Assembly (NCBI GenBank): GCA_036785375.1
Contig: JAWMAR010000391.1
Span: 1,054,001-1,118,000, forward strand
From: Leucoraja ocellata
Lineage: Eukaryota
Direction: 5' to 3'
DNA length: 64,000 bases
Part shown: piece after piece, positions 1 through 55,074 of the stretch
Layout of the letters: each line of letters begins with the position of its first letter
Numbering within the stretch: the stretch's first letter is position 1
Translations under genes and position numbers: made by a program
The notes under the pieces: model-generated
The model's database searches: none
Seen by the model: only the letters and a program-made list of their open reading frames with translations
Told to the model about the DNA's origin: nothing

Positions 1-378
1 CCTGTCACTAACAATGCATCTCCTGTGGTGCCCCTTCATAAACTGTGAGGCTATGAGTACTATGTCATTAATTGTTGGAAAGAGAATAATTTATTTATGG
101 CATAAGGCGCTAAAAAATAAAAATGCTGCCACTTGGTTATAGAAAACAAAAACAAAAATCACATGGTTGGTTAATCTGCATCTGTTGGGTAAACAGAGAA
201 GGACCATTGCGTATCTGAAGCATTCTTCATATGTTCCTTCAATAAATGGTAATAGATTTGCTCTGCATTTCCTGCATGTATATTTGTTCCATTACACTAT
301 ATATCTTTGGGCTTAAAATAAATTGTAAAAGCAGTAGGGAACACAAAAATAATTATTGGGAAATACTGTAAATTGGAG

Positions 379-563
379 GTACACAAAAATGCTGGAGAAA
401 CTCAGCGGGTGCAGCAGCATCTATGGAGCGAAGGAAATAGGCAACGTTTCGACCCGAAACGTTGCCTATTTCCTTCGCTCCAGAGATGCTGCCGCACCCG
501 CTGCGTTTCTCCAGCATTTTTGTCTACCTTCGATTTTCCAGCATCTGCAGTTCCTTCTTAAAC
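379..563 (+). mobile_element. Short fold-back element derived from a Penelope-like terminal repeat
   Basis: Inverted arms of about 75 bp centred on gtttcgacccgaaac. Perfect 14-bp TSD actgtaaattggag at 365-378 and 564-577. Same sequence family as the 3' end of the GIY-YIG element at 51790-52280. Confidence 0.8.
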
Positions 564-7100: not shown

Positions 7101-7788
7101 ATTGAGGTAAAATTAGGTTCTAGAGTTATTTGGAGATATAACCTTTTATTGTATTAGTAAATCAGACTAAAATCTCAGGCAAAATGTTTAGGATTTGGAG
7201 GATCCAAGACAATTGGGACAAACTACTGCAAATCTATGGGTTGAGCATGTTACTTGAATTCTAGTTCATCTCAGAAGATCTAGATTAATGCAAATGCTGA
7301 ATTCCCAATATCTGTCAACAGTTATAGAGTGATGCAGTGTGGAAGCAGGTTCTTTGACCCAACTATTAATGCCAGTGTGTAATGGTGCACCAAAATAAAT
7401 ACGGAAAATGTTGGAAATACTCAGCAGGTCGGGCTGCGTCTGTGAGAAGTGAAACACTGCTAATGTTTCAGGTCAAAAACCCTTTCCTCAGAATTGGGAA
7501 GGAGAGAAAAAAAAAGTAGGGCCAAATCAATATACATAATTTAAGATAACACTCTCTAAAAACCTGGCACATGTCATTTCTTCCTAAGATACATACAAAG
7601 CTGGAGTAACAGCGTGTCAGACAGCATTTCTGGAAAAAAGGAATAGGTGAAGTTTTGGGTTGAGACCTGTTGCACTAGCACATGCAATTTGTTTATATAT
7701 GAAGGAAACTATTTTACTTATAAATGTTAAATATACTTTTTAAAGCAAGTCTAGTTATCTATGAATGGATTTGTTTTGTTTTTTTCAG

Positions 7789-8091
7789 GCATTTGGTGCT
7801 TCACTGAGCTATTTTTCATGAGGGAACCCCATGACATCACTGCTCTGCGGAAAGACCCTGTAGTTCTTGACTGCCAAGCTCATGGAGAACTTCCAATTAC
7901 CATTGTGTGGCTAAAAAATGGACAGAGGTTGGCGGATACTGAGCGGACATACATTTTATCAAACGGATCGCTTTATATCACTGAGGTTGAACATCGCAGA
8001 GGGGACCGTTCGGATGAAGGCTACTATGAATGTTTAGCTCAGAATAAGTATGGAGCCATTCTGAGTCAGAAATCCCACCTCACCGTGGCCA
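7789..8091 (+). CDS. PRTG: Protogenin exon 2 (Ig domain 1)
   Basis: Acceptor tttttcag| and donor A|gtaagt; 303 nt. [33 protein letters not shown]...[21 protein letters not shown] matches vertebrate protogenin as I recall it. Confidence 0.97.
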
Positions 8092-8724
8092 GTAAGTGTT
8101 TTTGTTTTCGCTAATTAAATGCATCCTAATTTACCTATTGTGCCCAACTAAGGCACTCGCACTCACACTTTTGCAAACGAGGGAACTTCAAAAAGTATTG
8201 AGGCTTACATATCAAATTGTAGTGGAAATGCCTATCTTTAATTGAAGCAAAAGATATTGGATTGCAAAGGAAGCCACTTGTCAAATATGTCATTCTAATT
8301 GAATTGAATGGAAATTGTATTGCATTTGTTGATACGTTCAAGGGGATTGTGATATGATATTGGCCATCACATTGAAGAAGGTTGAGTGCCTTTCCCTGGT
8401 CATTATTTCTTATAAAGCTACCAGTTTACAGGATGTACAGGCAATTTTGCAGTTAGCGAAATGATTTTTGTTTTGTTTACGCAGATAAATCTTTAAAGTC
8501 TGTTGAACAAATAAATATGGCTTCCTTTACAGAGAATAGCATTAAAATTTGTCTCCATTTGTCAAATAAGTTTTCCACTCCATGCTTCAACTCGGTCATA
8601 AATTTAATAATACTGTTAGAACCTTGGGGCTTTATGTTATAAGATATATGTTTAATTCTAGGAAATAGAAATAGAACTGTAATGAAAATTTGTAAACATG
8701 CCACAAAATCATTGTTAAAATTGA

Positions 8725-11222: not shown

Positions 11223-12416
11223 TGCCAACTTGTACTTTTGTGAAATCATTTATTGTTACTCGCTTAACAGTGCATTTTAAAGATATATAATGATGATTTA
11301 ATTTGTATAATTGGCATCGTAAGGACCAACTTGTTATTTTTTTCAAATCATTTTGATTGACCTTACATTTAACTATTTTTTATATGATGAGATTTCTGCA
11401 GTTTCTTTTTGATTAACTGAAGTTAATAGCATCAGATATATCACATTAGTTTAATATTGCAGCTCTGGAGGTATTGTTGATTTGCGCCATTTACCAAGAC
11501 AGTTTTGCTACTCGTATGAACGTTTTCACAACCTGTGTGTATGGACATGGATGTGTTTCTAGAAAATAACTCTTTGTGAGAGTACTCGTGCAACAGTTTT
11601 CTCCCCTCTTTGCTTGTGAATGTTGAATTGACTCTTGTCATTGACGAACTAAGGCAGTTAGTTGCTGTTCATTGCAATGTAGTCATCACTGAATTCTTTA
11701 GCATATACTATTGTTAGTGGTAGTAGTTTTGGTTTGGGGAAATGCTTAATGTTCAAACTGATGGTGATAAACCTGTCTGGCTTTTTACAGGCAGCTTTGC
11801 CTCTTCTGTCTAGAAGCCAATGAAATTTGCAAGTACTTGTGAAATGCAGAGTGGGCAAAGTGGTTAATGTGGTGAGGCTGTATCTCCTAGCCATATTGCC
11901 ACTGTTTCTTGTTGTTCACTGTCCTGCCAAACGCTCCTAGTCTGTCTAAGTGTTTAAATTGCAGTCCTTTATTGTAAGGCAACTTGCTGAAGTGGATAGT
12001 AGTTCTGTTGCTGCAATTGTCTTGCACTCTTGTACCCCAAAGGGCTGGAGAAAATAATTTGTTCTGTCCACTTTGTCTGTTCTGATAATCCTCAGCAAAT
12101 GCTTTTGGTTCTGTTTAGGGAATCTAAGATTTAAATAAATGAACAGTTTGATCTTTTGATTATATGCAGGATAATCAAACTGCTAATTAAAAAGGAACAG
12201 GGAAAAGGTGTATGAGGAACTGATTTAAAATTTTAAGAGATGCAATGTTTGAAGTAAAACCATATCTTGGAGGAATAAAATTAATATGACATGGAAAATG
12301 ATAGGCATTTAGATAGAATATGTTGGGACTTAAAATGTATTTCTTCCCCTCACCCAAAATGTATTTGCTAAATAGCCCAATCTCTTAATTACACACAAAG
12401 GAAACATGGGTGCTTT

Positions 12417-12790
12417 GATGAACTGGTCATAGACTGCCGCAAGCAGGGCTGGAAGGCAAAGTGTATGCCCATCGAGGTTTTGCAGGGCAATTGCTCTGCA
12501 AAGCCTTGAGTGCACTGGGCATAAACGGAGTGGCGAGGAGAAAGGCCATCAAGAACACCGCAGAGGCAGCGGAGATGGCCTCGAGATGGCTCTGGATCAG
12601 GAGAGGAGGTCCATGGGGAGGAACGAATGCCACCTGAACACAAGTCATGGTCTGATCAACCACGGCTGGGTCGCCTGGGTGAGGGTGTCTGATGTTGAAA
12701 GACCCGAAACACCCAATGACCCCAGGTTACATCACTGATGATGTGTTCAGGAGTATCTATTGATGTATTTGTATCAACTGCATTATACCG
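12417..12790 (+). mobile_element. 5'-truncated HERO-like (R2-group, restriction-like endonuclease) non-LTR retrotransposon: ORF C-terminus plus 3' UTR
   Basis: Hand translation across one frameshift: DELVIDCRKQGWKAKCMPIEV / FAGQLLCKALSALGINGVARRKAIKNTAEAAEMASRWLWIRRGGPWGGTNAT* (TGA at 12635-12637). This matches the GW...PxEVGCRGF...EAAExASRWLW C-terminus I recall for HERO elements. Confidence 0.8.
12674..12748 (+). ncRNA. Putative hammerhead ribozyme with reversed strand order and a kink-turn
   Basis: GUC at 12687-12689, GAAA at 12706-12709 and CUGAUGA at 12735-12741. Helix III 12683-88/12709-14 (6 bp), helix I 12690-95/12729-34 (6 bp), imperfect helix II 12701-05/12743-47. Activity untested. 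Confidence 0.6.
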
Positions 12791-13713: not shown

Positions 13714-14010
13714 GGGGCAGCACGGTGGTGTAGCGGTACAGTTGTTGCCTTGTAGTGCCAGAGACCCGGGTTCAATCGTGCTGTCTCTGTGGAGTTTGTG
13801 CGTTCTCCCTGAGACTGAGTGGGTTTTCTCCAGGTGCTCCAGTTTCCTCCCACATTCTAATGACATGCATGTTTATTGGTTAATTGACTTCCTTAACTTG
13901 TCCTTGCTGTGTAGGATAAAACTAGTGTATGGGTGATTGCTGGTTGGCACGGACTGTGGGCCGAAGGGCCTGTTTCCACATGGCATTTCTAAACTAAACT
14001 AAACTAAACT
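13714..14010 (+). mobile_element. HE1-like tRNA-derived V-SINE, near full length
   Basis: A-box-like tggtgtagcgg, B-box-like ggttcaatc, V-core, LINE-derived tail gggccgaagggcctgtttcc and (TAAAC)n end. Confidence 0.85.
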
Positions 14011-25379: not shown

Positions 25380-26225
25380 TATAGGGGGTTGCACGTAAGG
25401 TCACTGGGTCATAGGGCTTGACGCTTGGATCTGCTCATTCCATCTGGAAGACATCCATCACTTCCGGTATATGTTATTAATGCTAGAAAGGCGTACTTTC
25501 CTACCTGTTAAAAACTGCCAAAATGTTGAATTTTTTACACTGGAAAAATTTGTGGGAGTCGGGGTAAGTGTGAGAGACATGTAACCAACTTTAGTATTCC
25601 CAAACGTGAAGCGAAATGAAGGTATAGAGAAGCGAGAACCGAAGGGACTACAGCAGCTGAAGTGCTTGGTAAACATTGAAAATATTGGGAATTATCGCGT
25701 TTGCTCACTGCATTTCATCAAGTAAGGCGTTATTTGTGTTTTTTCTTGATTCCTTTGGTATCTAAAAATTCTCAGAAGTGATAAATCTGGCTGTAAATTT
25801 TTCTTCAGATGCGTTTTCATTTTGTATGTAAAAACCCACTTGGGAACCATGGGCGATTTAAAAAAAATTACAGCCAGATTTATCACTTCTGAAACTTTTT
25901 AGATGCCAAAGGAATCAAGAAAAAACACAAATAATGCCTTAGTTGATGAAATGCAGTGAGCAAACGGCCAATGTTCGCCAAGCACTTTGGCTGTTGTTGT
26001 CCCTTCAGCTCTCGCTTCTATCTACCGTCATTTCTCCTCACTTTTGGAATTCTGAAGTAGGATAAATGTCTCACATGCTTATCCCGATTTCCATAATTAT
26101 TTACAGCACAAAAATTGACAATGGTAAATGCCTACCTGCAGTACATCGCTTGTACTCCATTTGGAGTAGCGTAGCAACAGTACGGGTCGTGGGTCGTGAC
26201 CCCACTGCCGTGAAACCTCCCTATA
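25380..26225. mobile_element. Fold-back DNA element of about 840 bp with long internal inverted arms
   Basis: Termini tatagggggttgcacg / cgtgaaacctccctata. Arms at about 25520-25802 and 25859-26120 (e.g. cagaagtgataaatctggctgtaa / ttacagccagatttatcacttctg). Confidence 0.75.
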
Positions 26226-26545: not shown

Positions 26546-26782
26546 TGTGTAGGAAGGAACTCCAGATGCTGCTTGTCTCTGAAAACGGGGGCAAAATGCT
26601 GGAGAAACTCAGCAGGTCAGGCAGCATCTACGGAGAAAAGGACAGATGACCTTTCGGGTCAAGACCCTTCTTCAGACTGAACTGCTCCATTCTGAGGAAG
26701 GGCCTCGACCTGAAACATCGCCTATTCCTTTTCTCCAGAGATGCTGTCTGACCCGCTGAGTAACTCCAGCATTTTGAGTATT
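26546..26782. mobile_element. Fold-back Penelope-like element with a hammerhead-like core on each strand
   Basis: Inverted arms; 15-bp TSD taggatgg(g/a)gaacaa at 26531-26545 and 26783-26797. Confidence 0.8.
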
Positions 26783-29782: not shown

Positions 29783-29972
29783 TGTAAGAAGGAACTGCAG
29801 ATGCTGGTTTCAATCAAAGATAGACACAAAAAGCTGGAGTAACTCAGTGGGACAGGCAGCATCTCTGAAGAGAAGGAAGGGTGAAGTTTCGGGTCGAGCC
29901 GAAACATCACCCATTCCTTATCTCCAGAGATGCTGCCTGTCCCACTGAGTTACTCCAACTCTTTGAGTCCAT
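29783..29972. mobile_element. Fold-back Penelope-like element inserted in an older LINE remnant (about 29540-30040)
   Basis: Inverted arms; 15-bp TSD cag(c/t)ggtgta(a/t)cctg at 29768-29782 and 29973-29987. Confidence 0.8.
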
Positions 29973-31094
29973 CAGTGGTGTATCCTGATGGGATGCTCTC
30001 TTAGGTGCATCTGCAGAGGTTGGTGCGAGCCATTGAACCTCTCCCCTGGTGTGCAGTAGAATTGACTTTGCTTATTGTATGTACTTGAAGGGCTTTGGTC
30101 AACATGCTTGTTGAGGAGCAAGGTTAGCTGTAGGACCATGGGGTGGGGGCGGAAGGGAATTGCGTTTGTTGGGAGTGTCGGGACCGTGACTGTTAGCCAC
30201 AGAGAGGAAGAGCAAGGGGCAGTTGTGCTGTAGACAGGTGATTTGGGAGTTAGGTTGCCGGCGAAAGAGGCCCTTCATGAGGGGTTGGTTGGAAGAATGT
30301 GCAAGTTGATGGTCTGAATTTTATAGCCCAGACCCCATCCTAGAAATGTCCGTCTGCATTCTCCCTGTATTTATACTTGTATGGTCTAGAGTGGAGGGCC
30401 TGCCTTGTCTCAGACGTCACCAGATGTCCTAAGTGACAGTTGGGACTCCAGCTGCCTCCAGCTGCCTCCAGTAGCCACCACCAGCCTCCACCCACCTCGA
30501 CAATCTCTGGCCAGACCTCGGCTAAATTGAACCCAACCCAAAATTGAGGTCTTTATCTTTTCCCCCTGCCTGACCCAACATAGTATCTGGGCTGTATGTG
30601 ACTCTGAGTCAAAATTGCCATCCATGGTCTAGAGGAGGTTCCTTGACACTCGACTATGACATTGTTGTGAACTTGAAACAGACAATAGACAGAGCACGGG
30701 CATGCCGGGACAATGTGGGGGAGGTCCCACCTGCCTTTGGATCGCACTATCACATGCACCAAGACAAACTTGGTATAAATAGCCAGAAAATGTGTCCCAA
30801 GACCAGGGAAGGGTCATATTCCCCTTCGGCACATCTCAGAGCTTGGCCTAAGCATGGATGCCCTTCATGCTTGGCCTAAGCATGGATGCAAACCCTGAAA
30901 CGATGCACTCCAAGCCCTGAATAACAGCCCCATTTCCCTTGCTTTCCATGTCACACTGAGACGGAGTCCAATGTGAAATCGACACTGGAAAAATGACATT
31001 GCATACCAGTCAATTTCCTTGTGTGTGCTTAGCAAATGTCCATTCAGCACCTCTGTCCCTGAGGTAAATATGTGTTCACCTATTTACAACCCAA

Positions 31095-43122: not shown

Positions 43123-43346
43123 TGTTGGAAGGGGCTACAGATGCTAGTTTACCCCGAAGATAGACACAAAATGCCGGAGTAACTCAGCGGGTCAGGCAGC
43201 AACTCTGGAGAAAAGGAATAGGTGACGTTTCGGATTGAGACCCGGCTGCAGTTGGCCAAGGGTCTCGACCCGAAATGCCACCTATTCCTTTTCTCCAGAG
43301 ATGGTGCCAGATCTGCTGAGGTACTCCAGCATTTTGTGTCTATCTT
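43123..43346. mobile_element. Fold-back Penelope-like element
   Basis: Inverted arms; 15-bp TSD tggttca(a/g)gaacctg at 43108-43122 and 43347-43361. Confidence 0.8.
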
Positions 43347-44754
43347 TGGTTCAGGAACCTGATAGTTTGAGGGAAGTGGCAGTCCTAGAACCTGGCATTG
43401 TGGGACTTCAGGCTTGTGTACCTCCTGGCCTGATGATGGATGATAAAAGTAGTTCTAATAGCCTGAACATTTAATTCTGTAGAGCTGGAGGACCCAGCAT
43501 TGCCAAACCATATTAAAATTATCTGATTCATTGGAATCAAATGTGTAAAGGAGGAATATTCGATGCCAAAATGCGTTGTGGTGGGCAAAGGATTAGGTAC
43601 CTTTATGGATGAAACGCTTCAACAATTGTGAATCTGCTGGCAAATTCTTTTCAGTTGGTATGAGAGGGGAGAGAGATGTATACAAAAATGACTTGTATTG
43701 CTGATATATTTTTAAATGCTCAGCTAATTTGTGACACAGAACATCTTGCAAAAAGGATTACATTGTGATGTGAAAATTGGAACTGGACTTTATCAATCAG
43801 CAGAGAGGTATTATTATAACAAAGAATATTTGTATAGATGGGTGTACCATAGTGCAAGAAAAACACTTTTCTATTAAATGGAAAGTATGTGTGCTAACTT
43901 TGCCTTGTACATTATTTATAAAATGTTAGCAAGTCTTTACCAATTATTTAGCATATGTACTTATTCTTTCAACAGCTCCTCTATTCCCCCGCTCAACCCG
44001 AGTGCAGCTTATTTGGCATTTCAGTAACAAAAGAGCTAATATTGAATTTTCTAATAGATGGTTTTAAAGTTCAGCTTGCGTAAGCCAATAGGGAAGTGTT
44101 TCATTAATAACAATTTTCAAACAGATTTTCTTTTTACCTGTTTGATAAACGAGAGCCGAAAGTGATCCATAAGTCATGTAACCTATATTTGAGTTTGGCC
44201 TTGGTGTTTGTCTTTGCTTGGATAGCTTGGGAGACACTTATTCTTATCGACATCCTGCTTAAAGCTACTTAGTTCTGTAAACATTTAGCTGTGGGTCGCA
44301 TCCATCAAACTGTGTGCACAAAAGCTGCTCTGATGGTGTTTAATAGGTACAACAATACTGCACAATCTGGATGCTGTAAAAATGAATTATGCCATTTTAT
44401 GTGTCTATCTTCAATTCCAATGGATTGCAATGACTTATTTGCTTTTATAGTATACATTGAAGTCGTTTTTCCTTGTTTACTTAAAGGGTGGTGATATCTG
44501 CTCTTTTTTTTCTATGAAGAATCAGAATTCAGAACTGTTGAAACAGCCTTTATACAATAACTGGACATCCATGGGACAGTGAGGACAATCAGCAGCAGTA
44601 AAAATGTCCATCACCTCAACCTGTAGCCTCATGGCGCAGCACATCACATATTCCCATTAAACTGGGGCAGCAGCACCTGCTCCATGGGGAGCACAGAAGG
44701 GCATGCTTGGATACAAACCAAGTGTGCTTAAAATCTGTGATGTGGGGATTGTTT

Positions 44755-52280: not shown

Positions 52281-54060
52281 GATTGATACTGTTTAGATGT
52301 TATGTCATGAAGTTGTTTTTGTCAATGCTTCATCCTTATAATGGACATTTTGTATTTGGGGTAAATGTTTCTCAGAAACATTTCACCCTCGAGCACCTCC
52401 ACCAAAGAGGCAATTGTTCATGTGTGTGTTTTCATAGTGAATGTCAATAAACTGTTCAGCCTTTGAAGCATCAGTTATTTCTGTTTCAGCATTTGTTGTG
52501 CTGATATGCATCCATCCAGCATGGTCACTGCATGGAGGCTGGAAATAGGAATCAGGGCTCAACTTTTTCTGTCTTGACCCATGAGTATTGAGTTCAATTA
52601 TATTGACCAGTAATTGCTCCCCTCATAAATTTACCACATCCTAAGGATCTTTCTCACTTTTATTAGTGTGGATACTTGTGGGACAAACTCTCTGGGCTCT
52701 TGAGTAAGCTGCCTTGCAAGATGCTGTAAATGTTGAAACTGATTATTTTTTTGGCAGTGCTGACTCAGGAATGATTGTTATTTTCTTTCCCTGGTAAATT
52801 GTGTGCATCTTTTCACCAAGACGGATGATTGATTTCTGACATTTATTGCACCCCCTATGGGTTGGTTGATTATTAACTGGTCGCAATCTGTACTTTTTAC
52901 CCATTGATTAGTTTTTGAGTTTCTTTAATCCTTAAAGAGTTCGTATTGATCTATAAAACGTGTCTCTCTTTATGCAGAAACTTAGAATTAATTCCTCTGC
53001 ACATATTGATGAGTTACAAATTTTGCAGAGGTGTGAAATTTTTATGAGCCCTAATGTTGTTGGGGTTAGTAACACGCTTGTATGGGTTGTGTGGTAAGGC
53101 TCAGAAAGATCATTTATCCTGAGGGAAGTTTTGTCATTTGTAACTCTGCAATCCTGAAAGAGTTTGGAGTTCCTTTCAGGTCCTGGAGTGTGAGAAATGA
53201 CTCTCCTCACCAGGATCCTTTCAATTGCTGCTGGCAAAAACATCTGTGAGATGGTAACCACTTGTAATGGATAAGACAGTCTCACATTAGTGCAGTCCAT
53301 CATGTCAACTAAATGAGCAAGCTACTACAGGACTTATTTAGATTTCACAGCAAACATATCTGTCAAGATATTTTGCATGCGTTCAGTTTTACAGTGGCAG
53401 ACTATGTTACGGAAGCCTGTTTGTAGAAATAATGTCTACTGAATGCTCATGTCTGTATGCAGTTTACAGTGGTATAAAAAAGTTGGAGGAACATTAGTCA
53501 TCTTGGTTTCAAATAAGTTTTAGATCTAGTTTTAGATGTGTTTTTAAAAAGACCCTGAAATTTAATTTTGTGAATTATTAATTAATATATAATATAAACA
53601 GATATAATGTCAACATGATTGGACAAGTGATTGTGTTGATAACAAATCCTTGAGTACCGCAGGTTGGATTAGAAAAGGGAATTCGTAGTTCTTAAACTGC
53701 TTGAGAAATGTTTCCCAGACCCGCTCTTTTTAAAATCATTCACGTAAACACCTGTTTTGATTAACCTTTTGTGTGAGAACAGTTTTGTGAATGCTCGGAT
53801 ACTGTAACCAGCTGCTTCAGAGTTGGAGGGGAGTGATTTTGAACTTTACGTGAAAAATAATTTGTGAGATGTATTCATGTAAACTTTGTAATCCAACTGA
53901 ATCATTTCAAAAATCAACGTTTTTGGTTCTCATTGTATTATGAACTGGGGGTATTAGGAAATCTTTTTTGCACCTTCCTACAAAATCAGAGATTTGAGTT
54001 TTCTCAGAGGTTTCATTTCTTGTGCCTGAGTTTGTAAACGGGATGTTGCTTTTGTTTCAG

Positions 54061-54205
54061 GCATGTCTCCGTTTGAGGTTCAGCCAGTGCCCACGGTCGT
54101 GAGAGAAGGAGAAGTGGCACGTTTTATCTGTAAGATTCATGCAAATCCACCACCAATCATAACCTGGGAATTCAACCGGACAACACTACCCCTCGCTACC
54201 GACAG
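54061..54205 (+). CDS. PRTG: Protogenin exon 3 (Ig2, N-terminal half)
   Basis: Acceptor tttgtttcag| and donor AG|gtatt; 145 nt. [43 protein letters not shown]. Confidence 0.96.
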
Positions 54206-54754
54206 GTATTATTCGTGGGAAATCTGCAATTTCCCATCAAATTGTGAAAAGCAAAATCTGCATAATTAAATCTACTGTAATGTACAGTAAAACCCAAATT
54301 AACTGGCGTTCTCTGAACTGTGGGTGCAGGGCTGACAGATTATCTGGCCAATTGGTTGTTAATTCTACTAATACACCAATGTGTTTTAATTTCACTCTTT
54401 TGCGCGTTGCACAGTGGTATAAGTGTAAAAACTTTGTAAAAACTTTTTTGTGAACTTTTAGTGAGTAACAGGTTGTAAATTTTTGCTTGTTAAAATAAAC
54501 AAACACTTTAGTCCCTGGGCTCGAGCTGTAATCTTGCCCATGTGTCTGACCCCCTGGTGTGCTGGACCCCAACCCCAGCTTTGCCATGTGCTCTGTTTGT
54601 CCACCCGTCTCCGCTTGCACTCGGGACCCCGAGTTGCTGTCTAGAAAAATGAAGGAACCAAATGACAAACCAACAGAATTTTTGAACAATTAGACTGGAG
54701 TCACATAATTTAAATATAATAATTACTTCTGTGCAATTTTGCTTTTGTTTCTAT

Positions 54755-55074
54755 TTTAGTTTAGTTTTTTTAGTTTAGTTTAGTGATACAGGCCCTTCGG
54801 CCCATCGCGTCTGCACCGACCTGCAACCCCTGCACATTAACACTATCCTGCAGCCACTAGGGACAATTTACACTTATACCAAGCCAATTACCTGCAAACC
54901 TGTACGTCTATGGCGTGTGGGAGGAAACCAAAGATTCTCGGAGAAAACCCACGTGGTCACGGGGAGAACGTACGAACTCCATACAGACAGCACCCATAGT
55001 CTGGTTCAAACCTGGGTCTCTGCCGCTACAAGCGCTGTAAGGCAGCAACTCTACCGCTGCACCACCATGCTGCC
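54755..55074 (-). mobile_element. HE1-like tRNA-derived V-SINE
   Basis: Reverse-complement homologue of 13714-14010 with (TTTAG)n tail. Confidence 0.85.

What the first reader, a model, noticed from the sequence alone, without database searches (positions are those of the whole stretch)
12674..12726. Consensus kink-turn extending helix III of the putative reversed hammerhead
Seen: 5'-CACCC AAU GA C CCCAGG-3' (12710-12726) pairs with 5'-CCUGGG U GA GGGUG-3' (12674-12687). That gives a canonical stem, a 3-nt bulge (AAU), tandem G.A/A.G pairs, a C.U pair and a 6-bp second stem. Established: this is the standard k-turn pattern, which bends the helix sharply and binds L7Ae-family proteins such as SNU13/15.5K. 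Inference: the kink would return the chain toward helix I, which starts only 2 nt later (12729). That is the geometric problem the C-B-A order creates, so this independently supports the fold, and folding or cleavage might be protein-assisted.
Basis: partly seen in the sequence, partly recalled or inferred. Interest (0 to 1): 0.75.

Follow-up and report, generated by a model that had tools for sequence, protein, structure and literature searches.

The report
Kink-turn hammerhead in jumping-gene tail
A sharp RNA bend motif (kink-turn) is conserved in the tail of a widespread family of animal jumping genes, where it likely locks together an unusually wired hammerhead RNA that is predicted to cut itself; I could not find this layout described.

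Summary
The k-turn is present as described and is the only strict match in the window (0.017 expected by chance). It lies in the 3' UTR of a 5'-truncated HERO-like retrotransposon. I fetched 80 loci by protein alone; an RNA model hit 71.

Among 36 non-redundant copies, 34 keep both GA steps and a 3-nt bulge, and both flanking stems covary. The C-stem is hammerhead helix III. Helices I and II and two outer helices also covary (87.5% of cells paired against 59.4% shuffled). The catalytic core is conserved and position 17 is never G.

The block order matches published type-SGC hammerheads, but CUGANGA is disconnected from helix II; a P1/P2 stack likely bridges the gap. A crude model needs a sharp bend. 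Protein help looks unnecessary: 28 of 34 copies follow the Mg-only folding rule. The rival fold is rejected.

Cleavage is untested, and polyA reads cross the predicted cut without a drop. Verdict: a new hammerhead variant, not found in ten literature searches.

The parts
12416..12777 (+). 5'-truncated 3' end of an RLE-type (HERO-like) non-LTR retrotransposon; no target-site duplication seen
   Evidence: Reads and contigs of other copies cover about 12416-12777 and have loose ends there; junctions
12416..12637 (+). Remnant of the ORF C-terminus, frameshifted by a 13-nt deletion near 12473; stop codon at 12635-12637
   Evidence: 89% identity to P0001, whose relatives are fish RT proteins
12633..12642 (+). 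P1, 5' strand; overlaps the stop codon; pairs with 12742-12751
   Evidence: 10 of 10 pairs with double changes; 61 WC switches on the tree
12643..12667 (+). P2 hairpin, directly adjoining P1 (coaxial stacking inferred); loop often UGAUCA
   Evidence: 9 of 9 pairs with double changes
12668..12672 (+). Helix II, 5' strand (G10.1 = 12668); pairs with 12701-12705
   Evidence: 92.8% of cells paired, 4 of 5 pairs with double changes
12674..12682 (+). k-turn non-bulged strand: NC stem 12674-79, 3n U12680, G2n-A1n 12681-82
   Evidence: NC stem 90.0% paired, 6 of 6 pairs with double changes; G 34 of 36, A 34 of 36
12683..12689 (+). k-turn C stem = hammerhead helix III strand (12683-87), U16.1 (12688), H17 (C12689); predicted cut between 12689 and 12690
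   Evidence: 94.4% paired; U 35 of 36; position 17 is C 17, U 11, A 8, G 0
12690..12695 (+). Helix I, strand 1.x; pairs with 12729-12734
   Evidence: 96.0% paired; pair 1.1-2.1 is Watson-Crick in 36 of 36 with all four types
12701..12709 (+). Helix II 3' strand (C11.1 = 12705) and GAAA (G12 = 12706, A15.1 = 12709)
   Evidence: G12 33 of 36, A13 and A14 36 of 36, A15.1 35 of 36
12710..12726 (+). k-turn bulged strand: C stem 12710-14, bulge 12715-17, G1b-A2b 12718-19, 3b C12720, NC stem 12721-26
   Evidence: G 35 of 36, A 35 of 36; 3-nt bulge with both GA in 34 of 36
12729..12741 (+). Helix I strand 2.x (12729-34) and CUGAUGA (C3-A9, 12735-41)
   Evidence: C3, U4, A6, A9 36 of 36; G5, G8 35 of 36; N7 variable
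12742..12751 (+). P1, 3' strand, directly after A9; not the partner of helix II
   Evidence: pairing with 12701-05 is at shuffle level, 44.4% against 41.6%
12752..12777 (+). 3' tail of the element (short hairpin, end near CAAC), 88 nt past the predicted cut
   Evidence: Family-wise 3' ends; distance
7755..8111 (+). Open frame holding an Ig-domain exon of the host gene (DCC/neogenin-like); the element lies downstream on the same strand
   Evidence: Pfam I-set E 1.9e-12; best PDB sequence match DCC
54030..54266 (+). Open frame holding a further Ig-domain exon, probably the same host gene
   Evidence: Pfam Ig_3 E 4.5e-7

Best explanation
The motif is a conserved standard kink-turn that continues helix III of a hammerhead-core RNA in the 3' UTR of HERO-like retrotransposons; it likely bends that arm back so that its outer stem meets the far ends of helices I and II, closing a cage that is predicted to fold in Mg2+ without a protein and to cut after C12689. 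Shown: the sequence pattern, its conservation, covariation of six helices, the hammerhead core pattern, the S-G-C block order, and the split between CUGANGA and helix II. Inferred: (1) the kinked geometry; (2) a P1/P2 coaxial stack holding A9 beside G10.1 in place of a covalent link; (3) that the layout is type SGC closed through the k-turn and reopened inside the core; (4) self-cleavage; (5) the role. For the role I favour (about 0.5) cutting of tandem or read-through transcripts into unit-length element RNA. Its two ends would stay held by about 27 base pairs and could rejoin, so reverse transcription that starts in the tail copies an intact ribozyme, as the genomic copies show.
For: Loci were chosen by protein only; the RNA model hits 71 of 80, and 6 of the 9 misses lack enough downstream DNA. 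Structure-blind MAFFT alignment of 36 copies: 87.5% of cells paired against 59.4% shuffled and 36-41% with slid partners; 38 of 40 pairs show double changes. The top 17 of 6786 column pairs by MI-APC are all predicted pairs. Minimum WC-to-WC switches on a tree: NC 29, C/III 22, I 20, II 15. RNAalifold finds both k-turn stems unaided. Standard k-turn in 34 of 36. In 30 copies left out of the model, the four GA positions are kept in 28, 29, 28 and 29, and the bulge is 3 nt in 29 (many are close kin of model rows). Position 17 is never G and N7 varies. Spacing from helix II to the GA is 7-8 nt in 36 of 36; a straight arm would leave about 46 A for a 1-nt link against about 12 A at 50 degrees (angle from PMC8191799). 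Type-SGC hammerheads cleave in vitro (PMC10085705). All 3 intact 5' UTR starts seen upstream of an ORF are preceded by an element tail, one beginning 1 nt after the predicted cut (L010); 5 more 3' ends run straight into a 5' UTR.
Against: No cleavage, folding or binding was measured. In one polyA run (90 reads laid, about 6% of the run read, reads from other copies) depth does not drop across 12689/12690; the only pile-up is 5 starts at 12687, not 12690. Every genomic copy with the motif carries the site uncut, so the template was intact there. ViennaRNA, which has no pseudoknot or k-turn terms, prefers the rival fold for this copy, so it may misfold. L013/L020 lack the bulged-strand GA and L027 lacks the other. 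3 loci with downstream DNA have no motif (L053, L074, L076). A hammerhead opened between A9 and G10.1 has no tested precedent in what I read; PMC10085705 assumes that block cannot be split. The tandem in L028 joins two subfamilies (72% identity), which one circular template cannot explain. L010 is one contig start and may be an assembly break. The geometry is a back-of-envelope axis model with assumed layer counts.
Confidence: 0.76

Rival explanations
1. Same fold, but protein-gated: the k-turn folds, and the ribozyme cuts, only when 15.5K/SNU13 (L7Ae family) or the element's own protein binds.
For: L3 is U in 29 of 36, which suits L7Ae binding (recalled). Most k-turns fold on L7Ae binding (PMC8191799). 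PMC10085705 raises a helper protein for slow SGC ribozymes. Gating would explain uncut copies and reads.
Against: 28 of 34 standard copies have 3n=G or 3b=C but not both, and none has the U4-type G-C (rule in PMC4382518). That rule came from Kt-7 duplexes, and 9 of the 28 are U.G wobbles whose rank I could not see (figure not held). Tertiary contacts can also fold k-turns.
Confidence: 0.11
2. The fold is real but catalytically silent: a hammerhead-derived scaffold that the retrotransposon protein recognises to start reverse transcription.
For: It sits at the 3' end, where such proteins bind their RNA (established for R2; recalled). Copies and reads are uncut. For a Penelope element, cleavage was dispensable in vitro and no reads ended at the site (PMC11167929).
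Against: G8, G12, C3 and U16.1 are kept, position 17 is never G, and N7 varies, across elements whose proteins share about 45-70% identity with the query. That is the pattern selection for catalysis leaves.
Confidence: 0.08
3. The strands pair between two RNA molecules or two neighbouring copies (a dimeric hammerhead), so the apparent pseudoknots and the need for a kink vanish.
For: Tandem copies exist. Penelope hammerheads cleave as dimers (PMC6765202). Covariation cannot tell cis from trans pairing.
Against: P1 encloses all strands of one copy, link lengths are fixed as a cis cage requires, and tandem copies lie about 3.6 kb apart.
Confidence: 0.03
4. Chance look-alike; the RNA takes the nested MFE fold (GGGUC with GACCC at 12718-22) and has no k-turn.
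For: MFE and centroid for 12668-12745 of this single copy.
Against: That fold is 42.7% paired against 41.5% shuffled; its main helix is 38.6% paired.
Confidence: 0.02

Closest known systems
Type-SGC non-circularly permuted hammerhead ribozymes (HRIMA-1 and variants; Eckert et al. 2023, PMC10085705; main text read in full apart from most references, supplement text searched for 6 terms, figures not seen)
   Same: Block order cleavage site, GAAA, CUGANGA; mutually crossing core helices; short link from helix I to helix II; an extra helix joining the other strands of helices I and II (here the k-turn NC stem; inferred from their text).
   Different: Here helix II's 5' strand comes first and CUGANGA runs into P1, so their uninterruptible block C is split. 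The extra helix is fused to helix III through a k-turn ('kink' and 'k-turn' occur 0 times in their supplement text). This bears on their open question of how that helix's far end can reach the far end of helix III. Theirs come from metatranscriptomes and none from known genomes; this is in an autonomous retrotransposon of animals.
Standard k-turns: Kt-7, SAM-I riboswitch, U4 snRNA (PMC4382518, first two of four parts read; PMC8191799, passages)
   Same: C helix, 3-nt bulge, tandem G.A/A.G, NC helix. As in SAM-I, it would steer a hairpin loop back to form pseudoknots (recalled); 3b.3n is mostly of the ion-folding class.
   Different: Host RNA is a hammerhead; I found no paper placing a k-turn in a natural hammerhead. 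3b.3n varies more than in SAM-I or U4.
Pseudoknot (pistol-like) hammerhead (PMC11300833, first two of six parts read)
   Same: Same catalytic core in a pseudoknotted frame.
   Different: A9.G12 and G10.1-C11.1 form the stem of a loop there, with no k-turn or P1/P2 described in the parts read; different connectivity.
Ribozymes of retroelements: R2 5' HDV-like ribozyme; Penelope and retrozyme hammerheads (PMC6765202, PMC11167929, PMC13708176, passages)
   Same: A self-cleaving motif tied to a retroelement; tandem or partial-tandem layout as in Penelope elements.
   Different: This is an RLE element with a 3' UTR hammerhead, not a 5' HDV ribozyme; the Penelope motifs are mostly type I.

Membership tests
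Standard k-turn | Canonical (C) helix before the bulge | tested here: met
   94.4% paired, 4 of 5 pairs with double changes; 5 bp in 31 and 4 bp in 3 of the 34 standard copies
Standard k-turn | 3-nt bulge followed by tandem G.A and A.G | tested here: met
   34 of 36; 29 of 30 held-out copies have a 3-nt bulge
Standard k-turn | NC helix after the GA pairs | tested here: met
   90.0% paired, 6 of 6 pairs with double changes
Standard k-turn | Kinked geometry of about 50 degrees with A-minor cross-strand bonds | not testable with these tools
   Only a crude axis model, which favours a sharp bend
Standard k-turn | Binding of L7Ae-family proteins | not testable with these tools
   No protein-RNA test available
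Hammerhead ribozyme | CUGANGA, GAAA and NUH core nucleotides | tested here: met
   All 11 fixed positions intact and position 17 not G in 30 of 36; per-position counts
Hammerhead ribozyme | Helices I, II and III abutting the core | tested here: met
   96.0, 92.8 and 94.4% paired with double changes; MI-APC
Hammerhead ribozyme | A9 linked to helix II with at most 1-2 inserted nucleotides (as stated for known alignments in PMC10085705) | tested here: not met
   Strand after A9 pairs with 12633-42, not with 12701-05; so not a member of any described wiring, though it would work like a hammerhead
Hammerhead ribozyme | Site-specific self-cleavage 3' of position 17 | not testable with these tools
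   RNA reads gave no sign of it; needs an assay
Hammerhead types I-III (Rfam) | Circular-permutation order; match to Rfam models | tested here: not met
   No Rfam hit at gathering level in the window; no hammerhead among 6 matches to E 10
Type-SGC hammerhead | 5'-3' order: cleavage site, GAAA, CUGANGA | tested here: met
   12688-89, 12706-09, 12735-41; same order in the aligned homologues
Type-SGC hammerhead | Short link joining helix I to helix II | tested here: met
   1-8 nt, 4-5 nt in 20 of 36; typically 3 nt in the paper
Type-SGC hammerhead | Block C contiguous (helix I strand, CUGANGA, helix II strand) | tested here: not met
   44.4% paired against 41.6% shuffled
RLE-type (R2 group) non-LTR retrotransposon | Single ORF with RT, then CCHC motif and PD..D endonuclease | tested here: met
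   1100-1129 aa frames in L002, L010 and L028 with these motifs; RVT_1 in P0114 and P0019. The window copy is only a 3' fragment.
HERO clade | RT phylogeny with named HERO elements | not tested
   L002 is 62% identical over 964 aa to the Takifugu protein BAC82598; that this protein is HEROFr is recalled, and no paper in the library held the accession
HERO clade | No Cys-His motif upstream of RT (PMC2790886) | tested here: inconclusive
   L002, L010 and L028 show an N-terminal Cys/His motif, upstream of where P0114 begins

The most novel reading that the evidence does not exclude
HERO-like LINEs carry a hammerhead wiring outside the six-order scheme: type SGC closed through a k-turn and opened inside the catalytic core by a two-helix stack. 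It works as a reversible cut-and-rejoin switch that turns element RNA into circles, so a restriction-endonuclease LINE would retrotranspose from circular RNA and leave head-to-tail copies, as proposed for Penelope elements and retrozymes.
Probability: 0.3. Interest if true: 0.92.

Novelty: new variant of a known kind. Interest (0 to 1): 0.8.

Why it matters
It would put a k-turn inside a natural ribozyme core arm and break the published assumption that the CUGANGA block cannot be split. It would move non-circularly permuted hammerheads from anonymous metatranscriptome RNAs into multi-copy elements of animal genomes, and offer a structural answer to the open geometric question about type SGC. 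It also gives a poorly studied LINE clade a testable RNA-processing step. A 120-nt transcript and one gel can test cleavage.

Tried and rejected
No own genome is held, so no census of copies was possible. Rfam found nothing relevant. Viral contigs: two motif patterns gave 0 matches and the protein scan 0 confirmed loci. Prokaryote genomes gave one 507-nt contig with no DNA after the ORF match. No RNA holder was listed by the run search. Two scripts stopped on index errors; the first was rerun and the lost control of the second is covered. Rows dropped before counts: of 80 loci, 5 were too short to parse, 15 were set aside as poor or mis-registered parses and L026 as cut off; the other 59 plus the window were reduced to 36 at 90% identity. 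The set-aside loci were then searched with the model. The apparent 2-nt bulges in 3 rows were alignment artefacts of 4-bp C stems. Rejected: the nested MFE fold, a standard type-SGC helix II, and box C/D or H/ACA snoRNA (far below gathering). Literature: ten searches found no paper joining HERO with a hammerhead or a k-turn with a hammerhead. The library lacks most subscription papers, Repbase Reports, patents and bioRxiv supplements; Fell et al. 2025, which catalogues Hero elements, is not held.

Full report
Observation. The two strands are at the stated coordinates and form a 5-bp stem, an AAU bulge, tandem GA steps, a C.U opposition and a 6-bp stem. A strict pattern scan finds only this site on both strands of the window, against 0.017 expected from 60 block shuffles; the pattern was tailored to this site, so conservation is the better test. 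For this one sequence ViennaRNA prefers another fold, in which GGGUC (12668-72) pairs with GACCC at 12718-22. That rival needed testing.

Setting. 12416-12777 is the 3' end of a 5'-truncated retrotransposon. Its reading-frame remnant is 89% identical to P0001, whose cluster mate is a Leucoraja protein and whose relatives are fish reverse transcriptases, so the host is probably a cartilaginous fish (inference). Full-length relatives have one frame of about 1100 aa with RT, CCHC and PD..D motifs, the RLE type. L002 is 62% identical to Takifugu BAC82598, which I recall as HEROFr; no call confirmed this. The copy lies on the sense strand between two Ig-domain exons of a DCC/neogenin-like gene (150 of 176 long frames scanned, 4).

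Homologues. To avoid choosing on the RNA, I fetched loci by protein motif: 80 kept of 107 confirmed. A covariance model built from 36 non-redundant copies including the window hits 71 of the 80, six of them partial or cut off by a contig end. Of the 9 misses, 6 have too little DNA after the match and 3 (L053, L074, L076) have DNA but no motif. The dropped rows are listed under Tried and rejected.

The k-turn holds. In the structure-blind alignment the four GA positions are kept in 34, 34, 35 and 35 of 36, while neighbouring unpaired columns vary. With the register freed, 34 of 36 have both GA steps and a 3-nt bulge; L013 and L027 do not. Both stems covary and RNAalifold finds them unaided. Thirty copies left out of the model agree, though many are close kin of model rows. 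The rival fold is at shuffle level.

What it is part of. Six helices covary: 87.5% of cells paired against 59.4% in shuffles and 36-41% with slid partners, with double changes in 38 of 40 pairs. Shuffles ignore kinship, so I added two checks. The top 17 of 6786 column pairs by MI-APC are all predicted pairs. Parsimony on a tree built from the same alignment needs 15 to 61 Watson-Crick switches per helix. The k-turn C stem is hammerhead helix III. U16.1, GAAA and CUGANGA are conserved, N7 varies, position 17 is never G, and pair 1.1-2.1 is Watson-Crick in 36 of 36 with all four types. All core positions are intact in 30 of 36; the exceptions are mostly G-to-A changes, as expected in decaying copies (inference).

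Wiring. The order is P1, P2 hairpin, helix II 5' strand, NC stem, GA, helix III, cut site, helix I, helix II 3' strand, GAAA, helix III, bulge, GA, NC stem, helix I, CUGANGA, P1. The loop of the k-turn hairpin thus pairs with both flanks of its own base. The strand after A9 does not pair with the strand before GAAA; it closes P1. P1 and P2 abut with no gap, so a coaxial stack would hold A9 next to G10.1 (inference). The distance from helix II to the GA is 7-8 nt in all 36. In a crude axis model a straight arm leaves about 46 A for a 1-nt link, and a 50-degree kink about 12 A (angle from PMC8191799). A sharp bend is therefore likely required.

Protein or not. [quoted passage not shown] Here 28 of 34 follow the ion-folding rule, 1 is G.U, 2 are C-G and none is G-C. 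The window copy has C.U. Protein binding may still occur but is probably not needed; the rule was derived in another sequence context.

Role. Copies end 30-45 nt past CUGANGA in most families, so reverse transcription starts 3' of the motif and crosses an intact site. After a cut, about 27 base pairs would still join the products, which would favour rejoining (inference). The three intact 5' UTR starts seen upstream of an ORF each follow an element tail: in L010 the contig begins 1 nt after the predicted cut, in L058 the tail begins within CUGANGA, and L028 has a whole upstream copy. Five other loci run from a 3' end into a 5' UTR; those five are biased by how the loci were chosen. I favour processing of tandem or read-through transcripts into unit-length RNA whose ends can rejoin. 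Against a pure circle model, the L028 neighbours are different subfamilies (72%), and the L010 and L058 repeats differ by 8-11%. Against frequent cleavage in vivo, 90 polyA reads from related copies cross the site with no drop, and the only pile-up is 5 starts at 12687.

Comparison. Rfam has no match. The closest known kind is the type-SGC hammerhead (PMC10085705), which has the same block order and cleaves at 0.007-0.19 per minute. That paper assumes CUGANGA and its helix II strand stay together, found no such RNA in known genomes, and leaves open how its extra I-II helix can reach the end of helix III. From its text, the NC stem here corresponds to that extra helix, and the k-turn supplies the connection; I did not see the figures. 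This RNA works like a hammerhead by every sequence test, but fails the contiguity feature, so I file it as a new variant and not as a member of type SGC. The pseudoknot hammerhead (PMC11300833) and the core variants in PMC3088659 (passages) differ. Papers on HERO seen in passages (PMC4640811, PMC7650587, PMC3636483, PMC2790886, PMC13580325, PMC13708176) mention no HERO ribozyme there. Ten searches found no description, within a library that lacks most subscription papers, Repbase Reports and patents. An unchecked AI note (e1-5861567) describes phage hammerheads opened inside the core; it is a lead, not support.

Verdict. New variant of a known kind, interest 0.8.

Noticed in passing
window 7755-8111 and 54030-54266 (+): Ig-domain exons of a DCC/neogenin-like gene (protogenin-like by recall). 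The element sits in sense orientation between them with an intact core, so host pre-mRNA may carry it.
   Followed up: partly
L010:1-100, L058:323-415, L028:1-839, L006, L021, L023, L030, L037: Element tails run almost seamlessly into the next 5' UTR; head-to-tail layout like Penelope elements. L028 joins two subfamilies.
   Followed up: partly
L013:1970-2090, L020:3184-3304: A family that keeps the hammerhead core and all helices but has an A-rich bulge without the bulged-strand GA, and longer 5' helices: a natural test of what can replace the k-turn.
   Followed up: no
window 12652-12658 and homologues: The P2 loop is often UGAUCA, a palindrome, or GGCC/CAUG in other families; possibly a kissing or dimer loop.
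   Followed up: no
L046:2202-2315: A divergent element (45% protein identity) has the motif about 580 nt after the ORF match, with a 4-bp C stem and a 4-nt bulge; it was not used in the model.
   Followed up: partly
L010:92-330, L028:826-1100 and kin: The 5' UTR is conserved (about 70%) between distant families and has internal short repeats; it may hold a promoter or a second RNA structure.
   Followed up: no
window 12472-12509: A 19-nt inverted repeat with no spacer begins beside the 13-nt deletion in the ORF remnant.
   Followed up: no
window 370-536, 1810-1953, 26592-26776, 29819-29973, 43154-43349, 25532-26114: Several palindromic MITE-like repeats of one family, and one larger 580-nt inverted repeat.
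   Followed up: no
window 13716-14008 and 54755-55074: Two copies of a SINE-like repeat (tRNA-like head by recall).
   Followed up: no
L001: A 507-nt contig of a bacterial genome assembly encodes this animal retrotransposon protein; probably contamination.
   Followed up: no
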